UHGV virus genome: UHGV-0143082
Source: a virus
Reading direction: 5' to 3' (one strand)
DNA: 32,928 nt
Position numbers and translations under genes: made by a program. Shown in pieces: positions 75 through 8,176 of this stretch (position 1 is the first letter of the stretch; every line of letters begins with the position of its first letter). The notes beneath the pieces are model-generated. The model ran no database searches. It saw only the letters and a list, made by a program, of their open reading frames with translations, and was not told the DNA's origin.

Positions 75-3023
75 TTAGTGCTTCCCTTCTATTAAGTCTA
101 ACCTAGCTTTTATTCTTTCTATTTCTCTGCGCTGCCATGCCGCCTCGATATAGAATAAGAGATCAGGTCTGACCCCCCATCTAGATCCTGCTGGCGTTAT
201 TTCAACGCGCTCAATGATGTCTTCCATTACCATCACTGGATTATCATCCTCATCAACAATGATGCTCCCGTCATTATCAGTCAGCGGTATTTCCCTTTGG
301 CCAGTAATGACGTCATCATATACTGCGGGATAATCGTCATAGCAAAGAAAGGCATAGCGGCATGTTGTGCTTTCTTCTTCCATGAGTCCGTGAGAAATAA
401 GAACATCACGAAGTTGCTGCGCGATTACACCATGATGTATCCTCGCCCCTTCTTCCCCCTTTATAGCGACAGCGTTCAGCCATTTATAAGCGATATACCT
501 GACGTCACCCCAGGCATCCAGCAATGCTTCGTCAGGAGAGACCGCCTCTGTCTTTAATGTTCCGTCACTGGTAACCACAGGATTGGAGCCAAGATAAACT
601 GTCGAGAACCTGTTTCCCGGACCACCAAGAGCATTTACATTATCAAGATAAGGTTTAACATCTCCGTTCTCAAAAAGATGTTCGAGTGCGTTATATACCG
701 CGCGACGTGGAGTACTGCTTCCGGAACCATGCAACGTTATCATTGCGCCATCTGCTGAAGACGTTGTTTCACCGCCGCTAACGATTAATCTCTGAGCGGT
801 AACATCATCAGACGGTACTTTCTTCGCAATAATGGCGTAATTACCCTCAAGTTTGACTTCCGCGCGAACTTGTCCTGATGTACCTGCATGGACAGTCAGT
901 GACTGGACGGCAACATCATCTGTGAAATCAACGGGTACAGGAACCGTCCTCACGCCTGACGTCGACATAAAAGTAGGAAGCGTTCTGTTAGGAGTGGCTC
1001 CGTAGACAAAATCCCTTGAAACAAATTCTTCCTGTTTAATTTTCACCCTGAAACAATACAAATCAGCCGGGTGACCATCGTGAACATAAGGATATTTTCT
1101 GTTGTTATCCCCTATGCTCCATGGGTTTAGAAAGTCTTCCCCACCGAAAATGTAGTACAGCCAGTTGTCTTTGATACAAACTGAACCAACACCAACCGCA
1201 GAGTTAACTATTCCGCCCTGATAAATCTGATCAGTAACATTAACCCACTCTACATTATCCAGACTCCACTCATTGACGTTAACTCTGGTCATAAATGTTC
1301 TTGGATAATTTCCTGCATAACGGTTATCAGGTTCTCCTCCTTCCCACTCACCAAATGCGCGCTCACTGCCAAAAATAATCAGCTCATCGCCAACTTTGGC
1401 AAAAGGAAGGTTTGAGTGATGAACATTATTTGGGAAGCGAAGAGAATTCCATGATGTACCTAAATCAGAGCTTCTGTGCAATGAACTACCGGGTTGAGTA
1501 CTTAATGTCCCCCTGGTCGTCAGATACAGAATGCCATCATAATATTTTACACATGGCTCAGATGCATTCGCCTCATATTCTGCAGGTATGCGTCTGCGAA
1601 CAAAGCTACCAGGAGAACCGAAAGCATCAGAGAAATAGAGTATCCCAAGCTCGCGTGGACCAATATCACCATTATGGTAGCCAACAGCAAAACTGTTATC
1701 GCTAATCGTCGCAAAACTGTGAATCTCAGTAACAGGAGTGCTTCCGTCAACAAAAGAAGAAATAGTTCCAAGACTGGTTTTTCTCCATGGTGACGAGTGA
1801 AATGATGTACCAAAACTCCAGTATCTACCCTCGTTATTCTGATCCACATCCTGAGTATTTTGCGTCGTAACTGTAAAAGTATTTTTATCAATAACAGTAG
1901 TCACCGTCATATTCCCGGTAACACCTGTAACACCAGAGTTTGAGAAGTTGACAAAATCACCAGCAAATAATCCGTGATCAGTAATGCGAATATAAGCGAC
2001 TTGCTGATTTGCTGCTTTCGTTATACCACCATAAACGCGAAGGCTGCGACTCATTGGACGATCCCACAACTCTGCAACCTGCAGTTTATTTCCGCGCACG
2101 GTCCGCGTCTCAATTACAGCAAAAAGGCGATTTCTGACAACCCCCATACTCATGCAGTGATAGTTAACTGTGGGATAGTTTTCATGTAAATCTGTAAGCC
2201 ATTCCGGCGTTGTCCAGGTCTTCCCGTCATCTCCTGAGCGAACCCATGCAACATGGAGGTTATTTACACCATGGCGGTCTCCAGCCATAAAAGGCGCATA
2301 GATGACATTGTCATATACAAACGTTTTATCCTGCGTCCAGGCGTTGTACCACGGTGTATCTGTAATTTTAAATAACTCTCCTTGGATAAAATCTTCAGAA
2401 GCATAAAAAAGAGGCTGACCCGGTATTCTCTCAAATAAAAAACGAGCATTTTTAAATCGACTGACATCTGGAAGAGTTGATACTTTAAAAGTAAGCCCTC
2501 GCCCATCTATCTTTTCACCACCTGTTGCAACAGAAAGTAATTCTGATAGAGCTGATGTATCATCATGAACACCATCACCAATAGCCCCCCAACCTCTTAC
2601 ATCATAACTGTCTCTCCATCTTGCTATCTGAAGTTTTGGGTATTTATTCGCTCCATCTGGGTCTTCTAATTGCTGTCGTAACTGATCAGGATCATACTTC
2701 AGCACATTCGGAAAATAGAACTGCTGCACACCGTACGCATCATAAACAGCCATAGAATGGCCCTGTACAGTAACGAATTTGGCAATCTGTCCGTTATATA
2801 CCGGATATCCAGCAGCGTTAATGATGATTGGTTGCGATACAGGAACGTGAGAGCCGTCTTCGTTCTCCACATAAACCTGAATCTGGTTTTCAGGATTTAC
2901 AGGGTCAGTGTCAATTTTACCGATATAAATTTTACCATTGGCTACGGCTTTAAAAGAACGAGCCATAGTGAAGAGTTGCGAAGGCATACTCACTACAACA
3001 TTGGCATTTATTGAATCTGTCAT
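75..3023 (-). CDS. Tailspike protein: P22 gp9-like head-binding N-terminal domain fused to endosialidase-like body with C-terminal intramolecular chaperone domain
   Basis: 982 aa; N-terminal ~115 aa closely resemble P22 tailspike ([45 protein letters not shown]); two Asp-box motifs SGDDGKTW and SSDLGTSW; C-terminal region resembles the self-cleaving chaperone of endosialidases. Confidence 0.8.
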
Positions 3024-3123: not shown

Positions 3124-4059
3124 TCAGTAGTTATGTACTGAAGGAGGTAATTCTTTATTCTTAAGTCTCATCCATGCGGAAAGATTCGTTGGTCCGTCTG
3201 GCTCATTAATATCAACATCTCGTGTGTGGTTTATTAAAACGTCTCTCGCCATTCCGATAACATACGAGAACTCATGACCGTAGTCGTAGCATCTGCCGGA
3301 ATAGTTCGATTGAATTTGTTTTAATGCCGGATACAGTTCGCGGAATAATGCCTGTGAACGGTTGGCATAATCCCATAGCCATACAAGGCTGTTTGCTTCT
3401 TTTGCAGAAAGCTCGTTGACTTTCCTCTCTTGTTTGCCGATGAACTCTCCTTCAAGCGGAACGCGAGCTGCAAGTGACAGTGCTTCGGTAAACTGCTCCT
3501 CACTAATTTCTTTGTACGAACATCCAAAATGGGATTTCAGTGACGACCACATGGTGATCATCGCCTTAGCCTGTTTTTCTTTTGGCAGAGACTGACCGCG
3601 ACTCATGACGAGTTGTTTAATGGCTTCCTGCTGTTCAGTGGTGATTTTACCCTGCAACGCCTTTTTAGCTTTGCGTGGGTTAACTACATGGCCTTTAGTC
3701 CAGTAGTCATGCAGCACGCTAAAGCATTCCTCCTGGTACTGAATCAGTTTATCACGGATGTCAGCACGAACTTTCTCAGGGTTGATGCTGAACAGCCATC
3801 CATTTAACTTCTTCAAAGGAAGGCAGAGTAGCTTACGAAGCTTCCCATCAGCGGCAACCATGTTCATATGAACACAGTTGAATTTGCTAATCTGCTTCAT
3901 GAGTTTTGTTTGCTGCGTTGACCAGCTCATTCCAAGGTTTTCAACGATTGGCTTCATCGCAACATATGCAACTCCGGCAGCCATGGCGGTGATAATTTGC
4001 TGACCGTTGAATGGTACGTAAGAGGTGTTCACTGCTTCTAAAATTGCTATACTATTCAT
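3124..4059 (-). CDS. ant: Antirepressor Ant
   Basis: N-terminus [21 protein letters not shown] resembles P22 Ant; sits between arc and tailspike as in P22 immI. ORF-track start at 4089 is a TTG; the ATG at 4059 with upstream GGAGA is preferred. Confidence 0.75.
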
Positions 4060-4130
4060 GTTGGTTTTTCTCCAAGGATTTACCGACAACCGAAGCCCTG
4101 ACTGTTACCGCAGTTGGGGCTTCAACTTTT
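4060..4130 (+). ncRNA. Candidate sar-like antisense RNA covering the ant ribosome-binding site
   Basis: Extended -10 TGcTATACT at 4045-4053 on +; predicted start about 4060; hairpin 4092-4123 (gaagccc/gggcttc) followed by U-rich tract; arrangement mirrors P22 sar. Confidence 0.3.
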
Positions 4131-4346
4131 CACTTCTTTAAAGTGCCTACCTTCTACAGTTGCTCTGAGATAAAAATTCTTATCTTTACCGTTTAGTGCT
4201 TCCCAAGCATCAACAATGCACTTATTACAGATGTGGACTTCTCGATAACCAATAGCTTTCCTGTCAATATTAGTGAACATAACAGCTTCTTTATCTGTCA
4301 ATGTGGATGCATGACAGAAGTCGCAATCTATATAAGATACCTTCAT
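4122..4346 (-). CDS. Small zinc-ribbon-like protein of unknown function (two CxxC pairs)
   Basis: 74 aa; CDFC and CNKC motifs; ATG overlaps the arc stop (ATGA), suggesting translational coupling; not present between arc and ant in P22 as I recall. Confidence 0.5.
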   Translation of the reverse strand: MKVSYIDCDFCHASTLTDKEAVMFTNIDRKAIGYREVHICNKCIVDAWEALNGKDKNFYLRATVEGRHFKEVKS

Positions 4347-4501
4347 ACCGTTATCCCCTCTCTCTTCAGGCTGTCCAACACTCGCTTGTAAATCTCAGAG
4401 TTAACAGATCGCCCGTTCTCTTCAGCTACCTTGCGCACCAAATCCAATACTTCTTTAGGCCACCGCAAATTGAACTGAGGCATTTTTCTTGCACCTTGCA
4501 T
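4343..4501 (-). CDS. arc: Arc repressor (ribbon-helix-helix)
   Basis: Hand translation gives MQGARKMPQFNLRWPKEVLDLVRKVAEENGRSVNSEIYKRVLDSLKREGITV, near-identical in core to P22 Arc; below the 60-aa cutoff so absent from the ORF track; an upstream in-frame ATG at 4522 is an alternative start. Confidence 0.8.
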   Translation of the reverse strand: MQGARKMPQFNLRWPKEVLDLVRKVAEENGRSVNSEIYKRVLDSLKREGITV

Positions 4502-4522
4502 ATTCAACTCCATTTCACTCAT

Positions 4523-4594: not shown

Positions 4595-4837
4595 GTGGCT
4601 AGAAATGATCCACAATTCAACGTAAGAATGCCTGATGAGATAAAACAGCAACTTACGCATATTGCTGCAACAAATCGCCGCTCGATAAACGCAGAGATTA
4701 TTTCAGCTATCGAACTATGGATAAAAATTCATAAAGGGCAGCTAATACCTTCAAGTAGTCGAATCCTGACAAAGTCTGAGCAAGAGGCGTTTGATGTAGC
4801 TATTGATGTGTTAAAACGTGTAAGAGATGGAGGATAA
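4595..4837 (+). CDS. mnt: Mnt repressor (Arc/MetJ ribbon-helix-helix family)
   Basis: 80 aa; MARNDPQFNVRMP resembles P22 Mnt N-terminus (MARDDPHFNFRMP); GTG start preceded by AAGGAGA; divergent from arc as in P22. Confidence 0.75.
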   Translation: MARNDPQFNVRMPDEIKQQLTHIAATNRRSINAEIISAIELWIKIHKGQLIPSSSRILTKSEQEAFDVAIDVLKRVRDGG

Positions 4838-5073: not shown

Positions 5074-5279
5074 ATAAAAAACAGCTTATTAAGTCAAAAA
5101 CGTCAAGCAAGGAAGAATTAGAGAAGGAGCTAAACTCCCTGAAATATGCTCTGTGTCTGGTTTACTCAAGACTGCCAATGGAAGATAAAAACGCCATTTA
5201 CAATGAAATGATTAGCAGCCTTGATTTTAACGATAGAGACCTAGCATCCCACCTCAACAGCTTCCGCGTCCCTGAGTAA
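5070..5279 (+). CDS. Hypothetical protein
   Basis: 69 aa; ATGA overlap with upstream ORF; AAGGA upstream; followed by the bidirectional terminator. Confidence 0.4.
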   Translation: MNKKQLIKSKTSSKEELEKELNSLKYALCLVYSRLPMEDKNAIYNEMISSLDFNDRDLASHLNSFRVPE

Positions 5280-5439
5280 TTCTGTTGCGGATTTGCTTCT
5301 TGCGGTGGTTTAAGCTGGAGAGCTTGGCTTCTGCTTCTGATATTTGCGCATCTAGATCTTTAAGCTCAAGATCTGAAAGTCGCTGGTCAAGCAGGGTTTG
5401 ATTCAACTCAATGTTGTTCAGGCGTTCTTCTATGGTCAT
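5254..5439 (-). CDS. Hypothetical coiled-coil protein
   Basis: 61 aa; strong SD AAGGAGA 5 nt before ATG; heptad-like leucine spacing; 3' end overlaps convergent ORF 5070-5279. Confidence 0.35.
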   Translation of the reverse strand: MTIEERLNNIELNQTLLDQRLSDLELKDLDAQISEAEAKLSSLNHRKKQIRNRITQGRGSC

Positions 5440-5451
5440 GATTTCTCCTTA

Positions 5452-5483
5452 TAAAAAACCCACCTGACGGTGGGTTAATTTTT
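5452..5483. terminator. Bidirectional rho-independent terminator
   Basis: aacccacc-tgac-ggtgggtt stem-loop flanked by an A-run upstream and a T-run downstream on +. Confidence 0.55.
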
Positions 5484-5566
5484 GCATTTACCTGGGCCAT
5501 ATTGACTACTTATAAAATGAGATCAATATTTAATCGCCCAATAACGGGTGTATGTTGAGGTATATC

Positions 5567-5746
5567 ATGGCGAAAAAACCAGGTGAAAACACAGGAAAAA
5601 ACGGCGGAATATACCAAGAAGTTGGCCCACGCGGCGGTAAGAAAGACAATTTTGCCACCGTCAAGGACAACGAAAGGCTTCCGCCAACAACAAAGCCAGG
5701 TCATGGCTGGGTATTGGATAAGCGAACTCCAGACAGCAAAAAGTAA
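5567..5746 (+). CDS. YjzC-like small protein (recalled family resemblance, uncertain)
   Basis: KKPGENTGKNGGIYQEVGPRGG...PGHGWV pattern; GAGG 6 nt upstream of ATG 5567; ORF-track start 5552 is an in-frame alternative. Confidence 0.45.
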   Translation: MAKKPGENTGKNGGIYQEVGPRGGKKDNFATVKDNERLPPTTKPGHGWVLDKRTPDSKK

Positions 5747-5751
5747 TAATC

Positions 5752-5775
5752 AAGCCGGTTCACTCCGGCTTTTTG
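5752..5775 (+). terminator. Rho-independent terminator after the YjzC-like gene
   Basis: aagccgg-ttcact-ccggctt stem followed by TTTT; overlaps the stop codon of the convergent gene. Confidence 0.5.
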
Positions 5776-6125
5776 ATATGTCGCTCGCAGAACTCAACAA
5801 GCCTGCTCATTAAGTAGCAGTAAGTCTCGTTGGCTCTTCCTGGTTCAACATCAACACCTACCCTTGAGCAGATATCGAATGCCATGTGAGCGCACTCATG
5901 GGCAATAGTAGATAGTTTGCCATTGAACACGCCTATCACATGCAAAACACCATTCTCGCTACTCATTGTATGAGACGCTCCGTTGGCGTCCGAGTCATGC
6001 ACGTCAACGCCAAGTTTTTGATGCAGGCGTTGCCATTCTGGAAAGTCTCTACAAAACACAATTGTACCGCTCTCAAAGAGCGGAACGAGCATCTTTGGTA
6101 CGTTTCCAATGTTAACTTTTTTCAT
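5760..6125 (-). CDS. Putative zinc metallopeptidase-like protein (HExxH motif), unknown function
   Basis: Motif IAHECAHMAF; ORF-track start 6137 is GTG, the ATG at 6125 (MKKVNIG) with AGGA upstream is preferred; located where P22 carries sieA. Confidence 0.5.
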   Translation of the reverse strand: MKKVNIGNVPKMLVPLFESGTIVFCRDFPEWQRLHQKLGVDVHDSDANGASHTMSSENGVLHVIGVFNGKLSTIAHECAHMAFDICSRVGVDVEPGRANETYCYLMSRLVEFCERHIKKPE

Positions 6126-6155
6126 GGTATCCTGCACAAAACTAAGGAGGTTGGT

Positions 6156-6344
6156 GTGAAGAAAAAATTTGTAAACGTTGCAAAGTGCGCAATTTTTATA
6201 TTTTTTATGACCTTTTACGGATTTAGTGCCGGAGAAGGTTTCGATCGTGATGCCAATGCATTCAGTTTCTTTTGTCTGTCTATAGTGGTCATAATTGTAT
6301 GGGTGGAATTAAAGCAAACATTGTTTCATGTGCTAGGTAAATAA
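6156..6344 (+). CDS. Small membrane protein (62 aa), unknown function
   Basis: Strong SD TAAGGAGG 5 nt before a GTG start; two hydrophobic segments; corresponds to the 3' third of ORF-track 5940-6344. Confidence 0.4.
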   Translation: MKKKFVNVAKCAIFIFFMTFYGFSAGEGFDRDANAFSFFCLSIVVIIVWVELKQTLFHVLGK

Positions 6345-6361
6345 CCATCCATGGCATTTAG

Positions 6362-8176
6362 TCACTGCTGTGTTGCCTCAGTGGCAAGCAGCGGTCTGAT
6401 GGCATTTGCAGCTTTGCTTAACGCTCTTTCATAAGCTGGCGTTCCAGCTTTAGTGTTTGCCAGACGTAAGAGAGCATTCCTTGCTGCTTTGGACTCATAC
6501 AAGCGCATGATTGCACCGAAACCAGCCTCAAGTCCCAGTGATACACCAAGGGTTGCAGTTGCGCCAATCGTTCTAATCCTGTTAGCTTGCGATTGTCCTG
6601 TCTGTGTTACTACATTTGCGGCGTCCGACCTTGCTGTTTGCTGTAGAACTTCATGAAGAGCATCAAGCTCTTTCATGTGTCTCCCACTGAATATCGTGTT
6701 ATAGATCTGACCGTCAGATTGCGACTTCAACTTATTTAACTCGGTAAGAAATTTTGTTGGCGAGTCTCCTGCTTTTTCTGCAATCTTGCTGATATAAGCA
6801 GCACGCATAGCGTTCTTTCCATCTTCACTAAGAGCTGGCCATATCCTCTTAATATCTGATGGTTTTCTGCTGAATACAACGCTGTTTATTAGCTCTGGAG
6901 TAAACTCTTTTTTAGCTTTGTTGAGATTATTCGCAATCCTTTTATTAAGAACCTTATTGAAGACGTTGGAGTAGTCAGAGTTTGCTTTGACGTATCTGGC
7001 GGCCTCTCCAGCCCCCAAATACCGCGCTGCGTTATTCCTCAAATCCGCCCCCATTGCCCTCTCCACGGCATCAGTTGCGGCTTTCGCGCTATTAGGAAAA
7101 ACCATGGCATCTCCCTGAATACTTTCCCTCAAGGCTGACCGCAACTCTCTCAATAGACCAAAATCTATATCTGGTTTAGCAAGTTCTTCTCGCAAATCGG
7201 ATAACCCGCGAATCAAATCCTTATTTGCCACTTTCCCAAGCCTATTAGCTCTGGTAAGTACGTTGTCGATAACCTTAATAGATTTTGATGTGTCAACTGG
7301 TGTGTCTCCCATTTTGGCTGTAATGTCTTCAATAACGCTTCCGGCCGAATCCTTCCTTGACTTCAGAGAGCCATACAGATCGTCAACAACAACTGATGGG
7401 CTATATTCACCATATTTCTCAAGCTGTTTTTTAACTAGCTGACTTCTTTTTGCATACTGCTCAGCTCGCTTTGAGCCTGTTCCCAGCAAAGCCCCCTCAG
7501 CATCCTGAGTAAGACCACGAGTGAAAGCATTTTTCGGCGGGATTACATCAGATGTCATTGGTGTTACGCCCATCGATTCTGATGTGGCAATTTTCTTCGC
7601 CACTTCTGGCGCAATATCACCTTTTATAGCCGTTATTCCACGCCCTATTCCCTTTGCTGCGGCGGAAAGAACACCCTGAGCGGCAAGGTTAACTCCGGCA
7701 TTTTTAGCTGCATTTTGTGCGAAATCGCCTTTCTGATTTGCGGCCTCTGCCAGTGATCCAATAGCCATGCTTCCTGCCGTTCCAACTCCTGGAACTAAAT
7801 ACCCACCAATTGTTTCACCGGCTTGTGCGTAGGGGTCTGTCGGTCTGTCTACTGGACGATAAACATCATCCAAAACCTTGGGTCCACCAAGCCCCTGGCT
7901 GATTGCATTAATCAGACTTGCGCCGCCCTGTAATACGTCAAATGGTATGTTTACCAGACCACGACCAGCCTGTTCTGCAATTTGCCCTGCACTTTGACCA
8001 CCAGTGAGCCAGTCAGTAGCTTTTCCTACCAGAGATTGTTCTTCTGGCTGCGATTGGTTTTGAGTGGATTGATCATCAGAAGACAGCATCTGAGCAATGC
8101 GACGTGCTCCCTCAGTATCGCCGGCAGCATCAGCATTCCTTAACGCCGTCATCAACTGTTCACGACTATAGGCCAT
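6362..8176 (-). CDS. DNA ejection/transfer protein, P22 gp16 homolog
   Basis: 604 aa; position and size match P22 gene 16; start overlaps gp20 stop. Confidence 0.8.

What the first reader, a model, noticed from the sequence alone, without database searches (positions are those of the whole stretch)
5760..6125. Small HExxH protein of unknown family
The ~121-aa protein carries a single IAHECAHMAF motif, reminiscent of zinc metallopeptidases. I cannot place it in a named family from sequence alone. A small phage-encoded metallopeptidase next to the ejection-protein genes could act on a host or phage target.
Basis: seen in the sequence. Interest (0 to 1): 0.55.

Follow-up and report, generated by a model that had tools for sequence, protein, structure and literature searches.

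The report
hkcC: small conserved phage zinc-protease candidate
The 121-residue protein is HkcC, a function-unknown gene of phages P22 and HK620, and it belongs to a large phage family that keeps a complete zinc-protease signature and, in its branch, travels with one small partner gene.

Summary
Window 5760..6125 (minus strand) encodes a 121-aa protein with HECAH at residues 76-80.

It is hkcC of HK620/P22 (99.2% identical) and matches PHROG 1365. Every source consulted lists its function as unknown, and Pfam, NCBIfam and PADLOC give no hit.

A profile search found 546 family representatives. Among 127 diverse members, H76/E77/H80 are 100% conserved, E100 99% and Y104 97%. This is a gluzincin-type HExxH-x19-(N)ExxCY signature.

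The AlphaFold2 model is confident (pLDDT 89) and has the secondary-structure order expected of a zincin. No solved structure matched it significantly, and I could not measure the metal-site geometry.

Tests for membership of SprT-like, metzincin and ImmA/IrrE were not met or were inconclusive.

Adjacency to the ejection genes is incidental. The HkcC-type gene travels as a two-gene unit, convergent (6-20 bp apart, sharing a terminator) with a basic YjzC-like ORF. This unit sits in at least four different phage backbones. A sister clade (Orf129/gp70 type) lacks the partner and sits upstream of the small terminase gene.

Best reading: a soluble minimal zinc metallopeptidase made during lytic growth, with an unknown target. 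It is a new variant of a known kind, of moderate interest.

The parts
5760..6125 (-). hkcC coding sequence (121 aa plus stop), a putative minimal zinc metallopeptidase
   Evidence: ORF list and sequence. 99.2% identical to HK620 hkcC and the P22 ORF. PHROG 1365 at E=1.7e-39. AF2 model pLDDT 89.
5886..5900 (-). Codons for H76-E77-C78-A79-H80 (HExxH): two proposed zinc ligands and the catalytic base
   Evidence: Read. H, E and H are each 100% conserved in 127 family members. They lie on helix 71-88 of the model.
5814..5831 (-). Codons for N99-E100-T101-Y102-C103-Y104 (NExxCY): proposed third zinc ligand E100 and catalytic Tyr104
   Evidence: Conservation: E100 99%, Y104 97%, C103 81%, N99 75%. 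E100 is the first residue of helix 100-116. The spacing from H80 to E100 is x19, as in thermolysin-type gluzincins (established knowledge).
6130..6133 (-). AGGA Shine-Dalgarno, 4 nt upstream of the hkcC ATG
   Evidence: Read. It lies in a block that is almost invariant (one 2-nt difference in HK620) across window, P22 and HK620.
5752..5771 (.). Bidirectional terminator hairpin shared by hkcC and the convergent yjzC-like gene; its stem encodes the HkcC C-terminus K-P-E-stop
   Evidence: Terminator scan hits on both strands. Annotated as bidirectional tORF59A in HK620 and t mnt in P22. The same hairpin is found in L141 and L007.
5567..5746 (+). yjzC-like partner gene (P22 orf59a / HK620 hkcD homologue), 59 aa, basic (pI 9.9); the longest ORF starts at 5552
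   Evidence: PHROG 3202 at E=7e-31. Sub-threshold Pfam YjzC at E=1.7e-3. Convergent with HkcC-type genes at a 6-20 bp gap in 8 of the 38 lineages (90%-identity clusters). pI.
5502..5530 (+). Promoter-like site (TTGACT-17-AATATT) upstream of the yjzC-like gene
   Evidence: Consensus scan. The same hexamers and spacing are upstream of the partner gene in L141 and L007. This is a consensus match only and is not shown to function.
6156..6344 (+). Divergent 62-aa hydrophobic ORF in the sieA/hkcB slot (GTG start, AAGGAGG at 6144-6150); its promoter must lie inside the 5' end of hkcC
   Evidence: PHROG 21338 at E=4e-45 over the full length. Maximum 19-residue hydropathy 2.16. The homology joint with P22 and HK620 falls exactly at this start codon. 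The P22 record places PsieA in the first 31 bp of hkcC.
6362..8176 (-). Gene 16 homologue (DNA transfer / ejection protein), the upstream late gene on the same strand as hkcC
   Evidence: PHROG 770 at E=2.6e-245. No terminator-like site on the minus strand between it and hkcC.

Best explanation
hkcC encodes a soluble, stand-alone, roughly 120-residue zinc metallopeptidase of the zincin type with a gluzincin-style site.

Proposed site. H76 and H80 on the active-site helix and E100 at the start of the next helix would hold the metal. E77 would act as the general base. Y104 would help stabilise the transition state. The beta-strand that begins at the invariant G49 would bind the substrate backbone.

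Expression. The gene has no recognisable promoter of its own and lies on the sense strand of the flanking lytic-cycle genes. It would therefore be made during lytic growth by read-through from gene 16. The convergent YjzC-like partner has its own promoter-like site.

Role. HkcC would cut one or a few specific cytoplasmic proteins, of host or phage, as a dispensable accessory function.

Shown: the gene is real; the motif, E100 and Y104 are conserved; the predicted topology; the genomic contexts; the partner linkage.

Inferred: metal binding, catalysis, timing of expression and the existence of a specific target. The identity of the target is unknown.
For: Catalytic signature.
- H76, E77 and H80 are 100% conserved, E100 99%, Y104 97% and G49 99% across 127 representatives that are only 22-43% identical to the query.
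- 141 of 145 top representatives carry HExxH.

Structure and remote similarity.
- AF2 gives pLDDT 89 and pTM 0.83, with the order beta-beta-alpha-beta-beta-alpha(HExxH)-alpha(E100).
- The family profile aligns collinearly but weakly with solved metallopeptidases, from the G-containing strand through HExxH: myroilysin E=0.009, BMP1/tolloid about 0.1, peptidyl-Lys metalloendopeptidase 0.68.
- 33 of 135 members give sub-threshold hits to Pfam SprT-like, best 1e-4.
- In the viral structure library the more distant matches include proteins named SprT-like, metalloprotease and IrrE.

Protein properties. It is soluble and acidic: pI 6.4, maximum 19-residue hydropathy 1.07.

Expression.
- No promoter-like or terminator-like site lies between gene 16 and hkcC on the minus strand.
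- In L141 the start codon abuts the stop of an upstream, function-unknown ORF (phrog_1189) that follows the tail assembly chaperone gene.

Accessory status. The gene is absent from the otherwise very similar phage Emek, which carries other genes in that slot.
Against:
- No family member has been studied experimentally in anything I could find.
- No curated family threshold is reached.
- Lytic-cycle expression is inferred only from gene order and consensus scans.
- In L009 the pair sits after replication genes, not in a late operon.
Confidence: 0.6

Rival explanations
1. An SprT/Spartan-like, DNA-associated protease. It would remove proteins bound or crosslinked to phage DNA during late replication and packaging.
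For: - SprT-like is by far the most frequent Pfam family hit by members: 33 of 135, best E=1e-4.
- The viral structure library returns relatives named SprT-like.
- The Orf129-type clade sits immediately upstream of the small terminase gene.
- Longer members carry Lys/Arg-rich C-terminal tails that could bind nucleic acid.
Against: - Profile-profile comparison with an E. coli SprT alignment gives only 7.6% probability, and the alignment stops before the third ligand.
- No His lies 11-15 residues after HExxH, where the aligned SprT sequences keep an invariant His (H95). The conserved residue here is Glu at +20.
- There is no zinc-ribbon domain (PF17283 in true SprT).
- HkcC and its family are acidic (median pI 5.9), and HkcC itself has no basic tail.
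Confidence: 0.1
2. An ImmA/IrrE-like anti-repressor protease. It would cleave a phage repressor (Mnt, Arc or C2) to commit the phage to lytic growth.
For: - In P22-like phages the gene lies in the immunity I region beside mnt, arc and ant.
- Weak structural matches to phage proteins named IrrE (E about 0.04).
- One member gives a faint Peptidase_M78 hit at 0.099.
Against: - The gene and its partner occur without any Arc/Mnt neighbour in tail-gene, Q-lysis and terminase contexts.
- HK620 keeps hkcC although its mnt and ant are only remnants.
- Orientation suggests expression after the lytic decision has been taken.
- Nothing reaches the Pfam M78 threshold.
Confidence: 0.07
3. A zincin-fold protein that is not a peptidase: either a metal-dependent hydrolase of another substrate, or a binding protein or inhibitor that uses the cleft without cleaving.
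For: - No fold match to any solved peptidase.
- Very small size.
- An unusual, conserved Cys (C103, 81%) beside the proposed ligand helix could alter the site.
Against: The general-base Glu (E77) and the Tyr (Y104) are conserved at 100% and 97% over very divergent sequences. That pattern is expected for catalysis rather than for binding alone.
Confidence: 0.12
4. Not a functional gene: an incidental ORF spanning the PsieA promoter and the mnt terminator. Several P22 records leave it unannotated.
For: - P22 records AF527608 and AB426868 annotate only a promoter and a terminator, or nothing, under the match.
- The divergent gene's promoter lies inside the hkcC 5' end.
Against: - 546 representatives exist in many phage types, with invariant catalytic residues.
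- There is a confident structure prediction.
- Differences from P22 are mostly synonymous.
- HK620 and later records annotate it.
Confidence: 0.01

Closest known systems
hkcC of coliphage HK620 and the same ORF in Salmonella phage P22 (PHROG 1365)
   Same: 99.2% identical protein with the same neighbours: the convergent orf59a/hkcD-type gene and the shared terminator. It lies in the same 'ant moron' region after gene 16.
   Different: One residue differs (H43 here, Q in P22/HK620). The divergent neighbour is a 62-aa membrane ORF instead of sieA (P22) or hkcB (HK620). No function has been published for any of them.
Orf129 of ST64T / phage L, gp70 of epsilon34, ORF47 of ST104
   Same: Same family at 38-40% identity, with the same HExxH...NExxCY signature. 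Also a small gene on the late-gene strand of P22-like phages.
   Different: Located after the lysis genes and DUF2560, directly upstream of the terminase or head genes. None of about 100 loci examined has the YjzC-like partner.
Thermolysin-type gluzincins (HExxH plus a Glu on the following helix; the M4/M1 motif HExxH-x18/19-NE)
   Same: The motif and spacing match: HExxH, 19 residues, then N-E at the start of the next helix, with a nearby conserved Tyr. Comparison with the M4/M1 motifs rests on established knowledge.
   Different: About 120 residues with no further domains. No sequence or fold match to M4/M1 structures. The extra conserved Cys and Tyr (ExxCY) are not part of those families' motif.
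SprT-like family (Pfam PF10263; E. coli SprT/YggI, Spartan, Wss1)
   Same: It is the best Pfam neighbour at sub-threshold level. Both are small zincin domains, and the region up to HExxH aligns collinearly.
   Different: The third ligand is Glu at +20 rather than His at +11 to +15. There is no zinc ribbon. hhalign probability is 7.6%. The curated cut-off is not reached.
ImmA/IrrE (Peptidase M78) proteases of prophages and integrative elements
   Same: Small phage-borne HExxH proteases with a downstream Glu ligand (established knowledge). Faint structural and sequence echoes appear.
   Different: No Pfam M78 membership. No conserved pairing with an XRE-type repressor gene. The conserved partner here is a YjzC-like basic protein in convergent orientation.
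Minigluzincins / selecase (archaeal stand-alone gluzincins of about 105-110 residues)
   Same: Comparable size, and the same idea of a minimal soluble gluzincin scaffold (recalled from the literature, not tested beyond the PDB searches).

Membership tests
hkcC / PHROG 1365 | Full-length significant match to the family profile and near-identity to HK620 hkcC | tested here: met
   phrog_1365 at E=1.7e-39 over residues 1-121. All 135 aligned members hit it. 99.2% identity to HK620 NC_002730 hkcC.
Zincin metallopeptidases (HExxH clan) | HExxH on an alpha-helix, conserved across homologues | tested here: met
   H76, E77 and H80 are 100% conserved in 127 members. They lie on helix 71-88 of the AF2 model.
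Zincin metallopeptidases (HExxH clan) | Fold: a beta-sheet with a substrate-binding edge strand, a backing helix and an active-site helix, superposable on known zincins | tested here: inconclusive
Gluzincins | Third metal ligand is a Glu on the helix after the HExxH helix | tested here: met
   At sequence level, E100 is 99% conserved, lies 20 residues after H80 and is the first residue of helix 100-116. Geometry was not measurable because no coordinates are returned.
Gluzincins | Zinc binding and zinc-dependent peptide hydrolysis | not testable with these tools
   Needs purified protein, metal analysis and activity assays.
Metzincins | Extended motif HExxHxxGxxH/D plus a Met-turn | tested here: not met
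   The Gly position is F83 (F in 81%). The third-ligand position is C86, which is Leu in 58% of members.
SprT-like (PF10263) | Score above Pfam's curated cut-off | tested here: not met
   The query has no hit. 33 of 135 members hit below threshold, best E=1e-4; for example P0063 scores 15.7 bits against a 25.6-bit cut-off.
SprT-like (PF10263) | Third ligand His shortly after HExxH, usually with a C-terminal zinc ribbon (PF17283) | tested here: not met
   No conserved His follows H80. E. coli SprT has HELAH-x11-HG and Cys pairs, and true SprT proteins carry PF17283. hhalign probability is 7.6% and the alignment ends before the ligand.
ImmA/IrrE (Peptidase M78, PF06114) | Pfam membership and pairing with an adjacent repressor substrate gene | tested here: not met
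   Only one member hits, at E=0.099. Neighbours differ between contexts, and no HTH/XRE partner is conserved.
Known anti-phage defence or anti-defence proteins (PADLOC-DB) | Match to a defence-system protein model | tested here: not met
   No hit for HkcC at E up to 10, nor for the YjzC-like partner or the 62-aa ORF.

The most novel reading that the evidence does not exclude
hkcC and the convergent yjzC-like gene form a mobile two-gene system. The small basic YjzC-like protein would be made from its own promoter, in P22 as part of the mnt operon that is active in lysogens. The HkcC protease, made only when the flanking lytic genes are transcribed, would then bind or cleave that protein.

Two versions are possible. 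In one, HkcC is a built-in self-immunity switch that removes a prophage-expressed exclusion or regulatory factor once the phage goes lytic. In the other, the pair is a protease and inhibitor that works like a toxin-antitoxin pair.

The evidence does not exclude this.
- The pairing (6-20 bp gap, shared hairpin) persists down to about 40% protein identity.
- It holds across four or more unrelated genomic contexts.
- 9 of 12 distinct phage YjzC-like variants examined are paired.

Co-mobility as one insertion unit could also explain the pairing without any interaction between the proteins. One YjzC-like lineage and the whole Orf129 clade exist unpaired.
Probability: 0.15. Interest if true: 0.7.

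Novelty: new variant of a known kind. Interest (0 to 1): 0.45.

Why it matters
P22 and HK620 are among the best-studied phages, yet hkcC has stayed a gene of unknown function in their immunity I / 'ant moron' region.

- Assigning it to a large family of minimal zinc-protease candidates gives a concrete, mutable hypothesis: E77A, H76A, E100A and Y104F. The family has 546 clusters and is absent from Pfam, NCBIfam and PADLOC.
- The conserved convergent pairing with a YjzC-like gene supplies a first candidate partner to test.
- A stand-alone gluzincin of about 120 residues would be among the smallest of its kind, which makes it of interest for protease structure and engineering.
- The unit is common. 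It is present in 161 of 5,426 complete E. coli genomes, all annotated as hypothetical.

If the protease turns out to have no phenotype, the finding reduces to an annotation improvement.

Tried and rejected
- **Single-sequence library scans.** Pfam, NCBIfam and PADLOC gave only noise, such as lantibiotic models at E 0.03-0.14.
- **PDB sequence search.** The close-family profile found nothing at E up to 10. The broad profile found only weak metzincin and aspzincin hits.
- **SprT comparison.** hhalign gave 3.7% probability against a single E. coli SprT sequence and 7.6% against a 20-sequence alignment. The SprT homologues returned were all at least 74% identical to one another, so that profile was shallow and the test is weak.
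- **Word-index protein search with the broad alignment.** It returned only 'hypothetical protein' names and no Pfam domains.
- **Literature.** 'hkcC' with P22 gave two genome papers that call it unknown. Searches on orf59a, YjzC, SprT-like with anti-defense, HExxH with counter-defense, and a check of an accessory-gene screen preprint found nothing on this gene. Subscription-journal papers, such as the HK620 genome paper, are not in the library.
- **Ejection-gene adjacency as a functional clue.** Rejected because the contexts vary.
- **'Always in a late operon'.** Rejected as too strong, because in L009 the pair follows replication genes O/P.
- **Conserved Cys residues (C25, C78, C86) as a second metal site.** Rejected because they are only 26-31% conserved family-wide.

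Full report
**1. What is there**

The window is a P22-like (Lederbergvirus-type) phage or prophage. Its late genes are on the minus strand.

The relevant genes, in window order:
- Tailspike, 75..3023 (-).
- Ant, 3124..4089 (-).
- Arc, 4343..4522 (-).
- Mnt, 4595..4837 (+).
- Several small ORFs.
- The ORF in question, 5760..6125 (-).
- The gene 16 ejection-protein homologue, 6362..8176 (-).

The ORF has an ATG at 6125 preceded by AGGA. It encodes 121 residues with IAHECAHMAF at residues 74-83.

It carries the only HExxH among all window ORFs of at least 60 aa. The chance expectation for a protein of this size and composition is about 0.003.

**2. Identity**

The protein is 99.2% identical to hkcC of coliphage HK620. 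The same ORF is present in P22 but unannotated in several P22 records.

Two genome papers list hkcC as a gene of unknown function in the P22 'ant moron' / immunity I region (PMC2629481, PMC4837284).

Library results:
- PHROG 1365 (function unknown) matches at E=1.7e-39.
- Pfam, NCBIfam and PADLOC give nothing meaningful.
- All database copies are named 'hypothetical protein'.
- The hkcC-plus-partner segment occurs in 161 of 5,426 complete E. coli genomes, with 100% matches in chicken isolates.
- It occurs in a few phage-like plasmids.

**3. Is the motif meaningful?**

A profile search over 1.84 billion cluster representatives found 546 relatives at E up to 1e-3. Almost all are stand-alone proteins of 110-130 aa.

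Of the top 145, 141 keep HExxH. The four exceptions are truncated or frameshifted, or in one case read HKAAH.

In an alignment of 127 members that are only 22-43% identical to the query, conservation is as follows:

| Residue | Conservation |
|---|---|
| H76, E77, H80 | 100% each |
| G49 | 99% |
| E100 | 99% |
| Y104 | 97% |
| C103 | 81% |
| N99 | 75% |

The family signature is therefore G...GVF(D/N)...TLxHExxH-x19-(N)ExxCYL. HExxH followed 19 residues later by N-E is the spacing and residue pair of thermolysin-type gluzincins (established knowledge).

The metzincin extension is absent. F83 occupies the Gly position, and the third-ligand position is C86, which is Leu in 58% of members.

**4. 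Structure**

AlphaFold2 with an 18-sequence alignment gave pLDDT 89.1 and pTM 0.83. The elements are E11-13, E21-25, H28-37, E49-56, E59-66, H71-88 and H100-116.

This gives a small sheet with a backing helix, an active-site helix carrying H76, E77 and H80, and a following helix that begins with E100. That is the order expected of a minimal zincin.

The model did not match any solved structure convincingly:
- Foldseek's best E was 0.12.
- The AlphaFold database library was unavailable.

Against predicted viral structures it found 26 phage proteins at E below 1e-3. Most are uncharacterised. A few of the more distant ones are named SprT-like or metalloprotease, and at E about 0.04, IrrE.

A profile search of PDB sequences gave weak but collinear alignments running from the G49 strand through HExxH:
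- Myroilysin, E=0.009.
- BMP1 / tolloid, E about 0.1.
- Peptidyl-Lys metalloendopeptidase, E=0.68.

Model coordinates are not returned by the tool.

**5. Family placement**

Scanning all 135 aligned members against Pfam, 33 hit SprT-like below threshold (best 1e-4). No other family was hit by more than three members.

I tested the SprT lead directly:
- E. coli SprT (YggI) has HELAH followed 11 residues later by HG, and a Cys-rich C-terminus.
- True SprT proteins carry the zinc-ribbon domain PF17283.
- hhalign between the two families gave 3.7% probability (single sequence) and 7.6% (alignment). Both alignments stopped before the third ligand.

The SprT profile was shallow, because all its sequences were at least 74% identical. 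This test is therefore weak. Together with the Glu-for-His third ligand and the missing ribbon, I do not file HkcC as an SprT-like member.

ImmA/IrrE membership is also unsupported.

The honest placement is an unclassified zincin family with a gluzincin-type site.

**6. Context: two clades and a mobile pair**

I mapped ORFs in 11 loci from species-representative genomes and more than 300 viral-contig loci. The enterobacterial relatives fall into two groups (tree).

(a) HkcC-type genes are followed by a convergent ORF of 59-66 aa. This partner is P22 orf59a / HK620 hkcD, PHROG 3202, weakly YjzC-like and basic (pI 9.9).
- The gap is only 6-20 bp and the two genes share one terminator hairpin.
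- The arrangement is seen in 8 of the 38 lineages (90%-identity clusters).
- The backbones differ, as verified with PHROG:
  - After gene 16 in P22-like podoviruses.
  - Between tail assembly chaperone and tape-measure genes in siphovirus-type prophages of Xenorhabdus, Proteus and others (L007, L008, L141, L158).
  - Between a Q-like antiterminator and the endolysin (L099).
  - After replication genes O/P in a Pasteurellaceae prophage (L009).
- Searching from the partner's side, 75 of 80 viral loci were paired, covering 9 of 12 distinct partner sequences. One partner lineage, next to glycosyltransferase-like ORFs (assigned by eye, not scanned), was not paired.

(b) Orf129-type genes never have the partner (0 of about 100 loci).
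- Examples are epsilon34 gp70, ST64T Orf129 and many prophages.
- They sit after the lysis cassette and a DUF2560 gene, immediately upstream of the small terminase or head genes.
- The window has no such second copy.

In the mapped paired loci and the annotated records the protease gene is on the strand of the flanking lytic-cycle genes. In L141 its start abuts the stop of an upstream function-unknown ORF that follows the tail assembly chaperone gene.

In the window no promoter-like or terminator-like site separates it from gene 16.

The partner has a promoter-like TTGAC(T/C)-17-AATATT. The same hexamers and spacing recur upstream of the partner in L141 and L007.

Proximity to the ejection genes is therefore incidental. 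The meaningful neighbour is the YjzC-like gene.

**7. Mechanism proposed**

The steps below are marked as shown or inferred.
- Shown: a real, strongly conserved gene. Its product has an invariant HExxH, a conserved E100 and Y104, a confident zincin-like predicted topology and no membrane segment (pI 6.4).
- Inferred: zinc is bound by H76, H80 and E100.
- Inferred: E77 activates water and Y104 assists.
- Inferred: substrate lies along the strand starting at G49.
- Inferred: transcription comes by read-through with the lytic genes. In P22 the late transcript is known to cross this region to reach gene 9 (established knowledge).
- Unknown: the substrate.

I put 0.6 on 'a zinc-dependent peptidase made in lytic growth as an accessory function'.

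Rivals:
- An SprT-like DNA-associated protease, 0.1. The basic tails of longer members and the terminase adjacency argue for it. The acidic pI and the failed SprT tests argue against.
- An ImmA-like anti-repressor protease, 0.07.
- A non-peptidase zincin fold, 0.12.
- Not a gene, 0.01.

**8. Most novel reading not excluded**

The pair may be a functional two-gene system in which the lytic-phase protease acts on, or is held in check by, the separately expressed YjzC-like protein. I put about 0.15 on this.

Co-mobility of a promoter-gene-terminator-gene cassette could produce the same pattern without any protein-protein relationship. Both genes also exist unpaired in some lineages.

**9. Verdict**

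HkcC is best described as a new, unclassified family of minimal gluzincin-like zinc metallopeptidase candidates. It is widespread in phages, it is already catalogued as hkcC / PHROG 1365, and it has no assigned function.

Interest is moderate, at 0.45. The assignment is not mechanistically surprising. It does give a long-unassigned P22/HK620 gene a testable function and a candidate partner.

Noticed in passing
window 6126-6160 (joint); 6156..6344 (+): Window, P22 and HK620 are about 99% identical from the yjzC-like gene through hkcC. They diverge exactly after the shared AAGGAGG and GTG start of the divergently transcribed gene. That gene is sieA in P22, hkcB in HK620, and here a 62-aa hydrophobic ORF (PHROG 21338). 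The P22 record places PsieA within the first 31 bp of hkcC. The hkcC 5' end therefore seems to serve as promoter and leader for a swappable membrane-protein (exclusion?) gene slot.
   Followed up: partly
window 5752-5771; L141 1872-1893; L007 6352-6371: The bidirectional terminator hairpin AAGCCGGAGTGA(A/C)CCGGCTT also encodes the HkcC C-terminus (K-P-E-stop). It is conserved in prophages whose HkcC is only about 63% identical. The conserved KKPE tail of HkcC-type proteins may therefore reflect the RNA hairpin rather than protein function.
   Followed up: partly
window 5502-5530 (+); L141 2144-2116 (-); L007 6627-6599 (-): The same promoter-like element, TTGAC(T/C)-17 nt-AATATT, sits upstream of the yjzC-like gene in three lineages. 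This suggests the small gene is an independently transcribed unit. These are consensus matches only.
   Followed up: partly
window 5254..5439 (-) and 5457-5476: A 61-aa coiled-coil ORF (PHROG 7586; orf61 of phage Emek) lies on the late strand behind a second bidirectional terminator. It has weak PADLOC hits to PbeC and JetC, which look like coiled-coil noise.
   Followed up: no
window 75..3023 (-): The ORF in the tailspike position is 982 aa, far longer than the 667-aa P22 tailspike. Its identity and receptor specificity were not examined.
   Followed up: no
L002 4141-5014 (phage vB_SemP_Emek): In Emek, which otherwise matches this part of the window at 98.8%, the hkcC / yjzC-like unit is replaced by two other genes: orf161 and a DUF4065 protein. 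This shows the slot is exchangeable and hkcC is dispensable.
   Followed up: no
L116 1109-1465 and 2920-3333 (IMGVR_UViG_7000000005_000071): One viral contig carries two divergent members of the family about 1.5 kb apart.
   Followed up: no
P22 records AF217253.1, AF527608.1, AB426868.1: hkcC is not annotated in several P22 records. In the oldest one (AF217253.1) the translated match is only 72% identical, which probably reflects old sequencing errors.
   Followed up: no
proteins P0063, P0067, P0116, P0133, P0150; L005 4001-4585 (mEp044_72): Longer family members (173-194 aa) add a Glu/Lys-rich, probably coiled-coil segment. In several it ends in a Lys/Arg-rich tail, for example ...KPKAKPIKEEYVPRIARYKRG. 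The function is unknown; nucleic-acid binding is possible.
   Followed up: no
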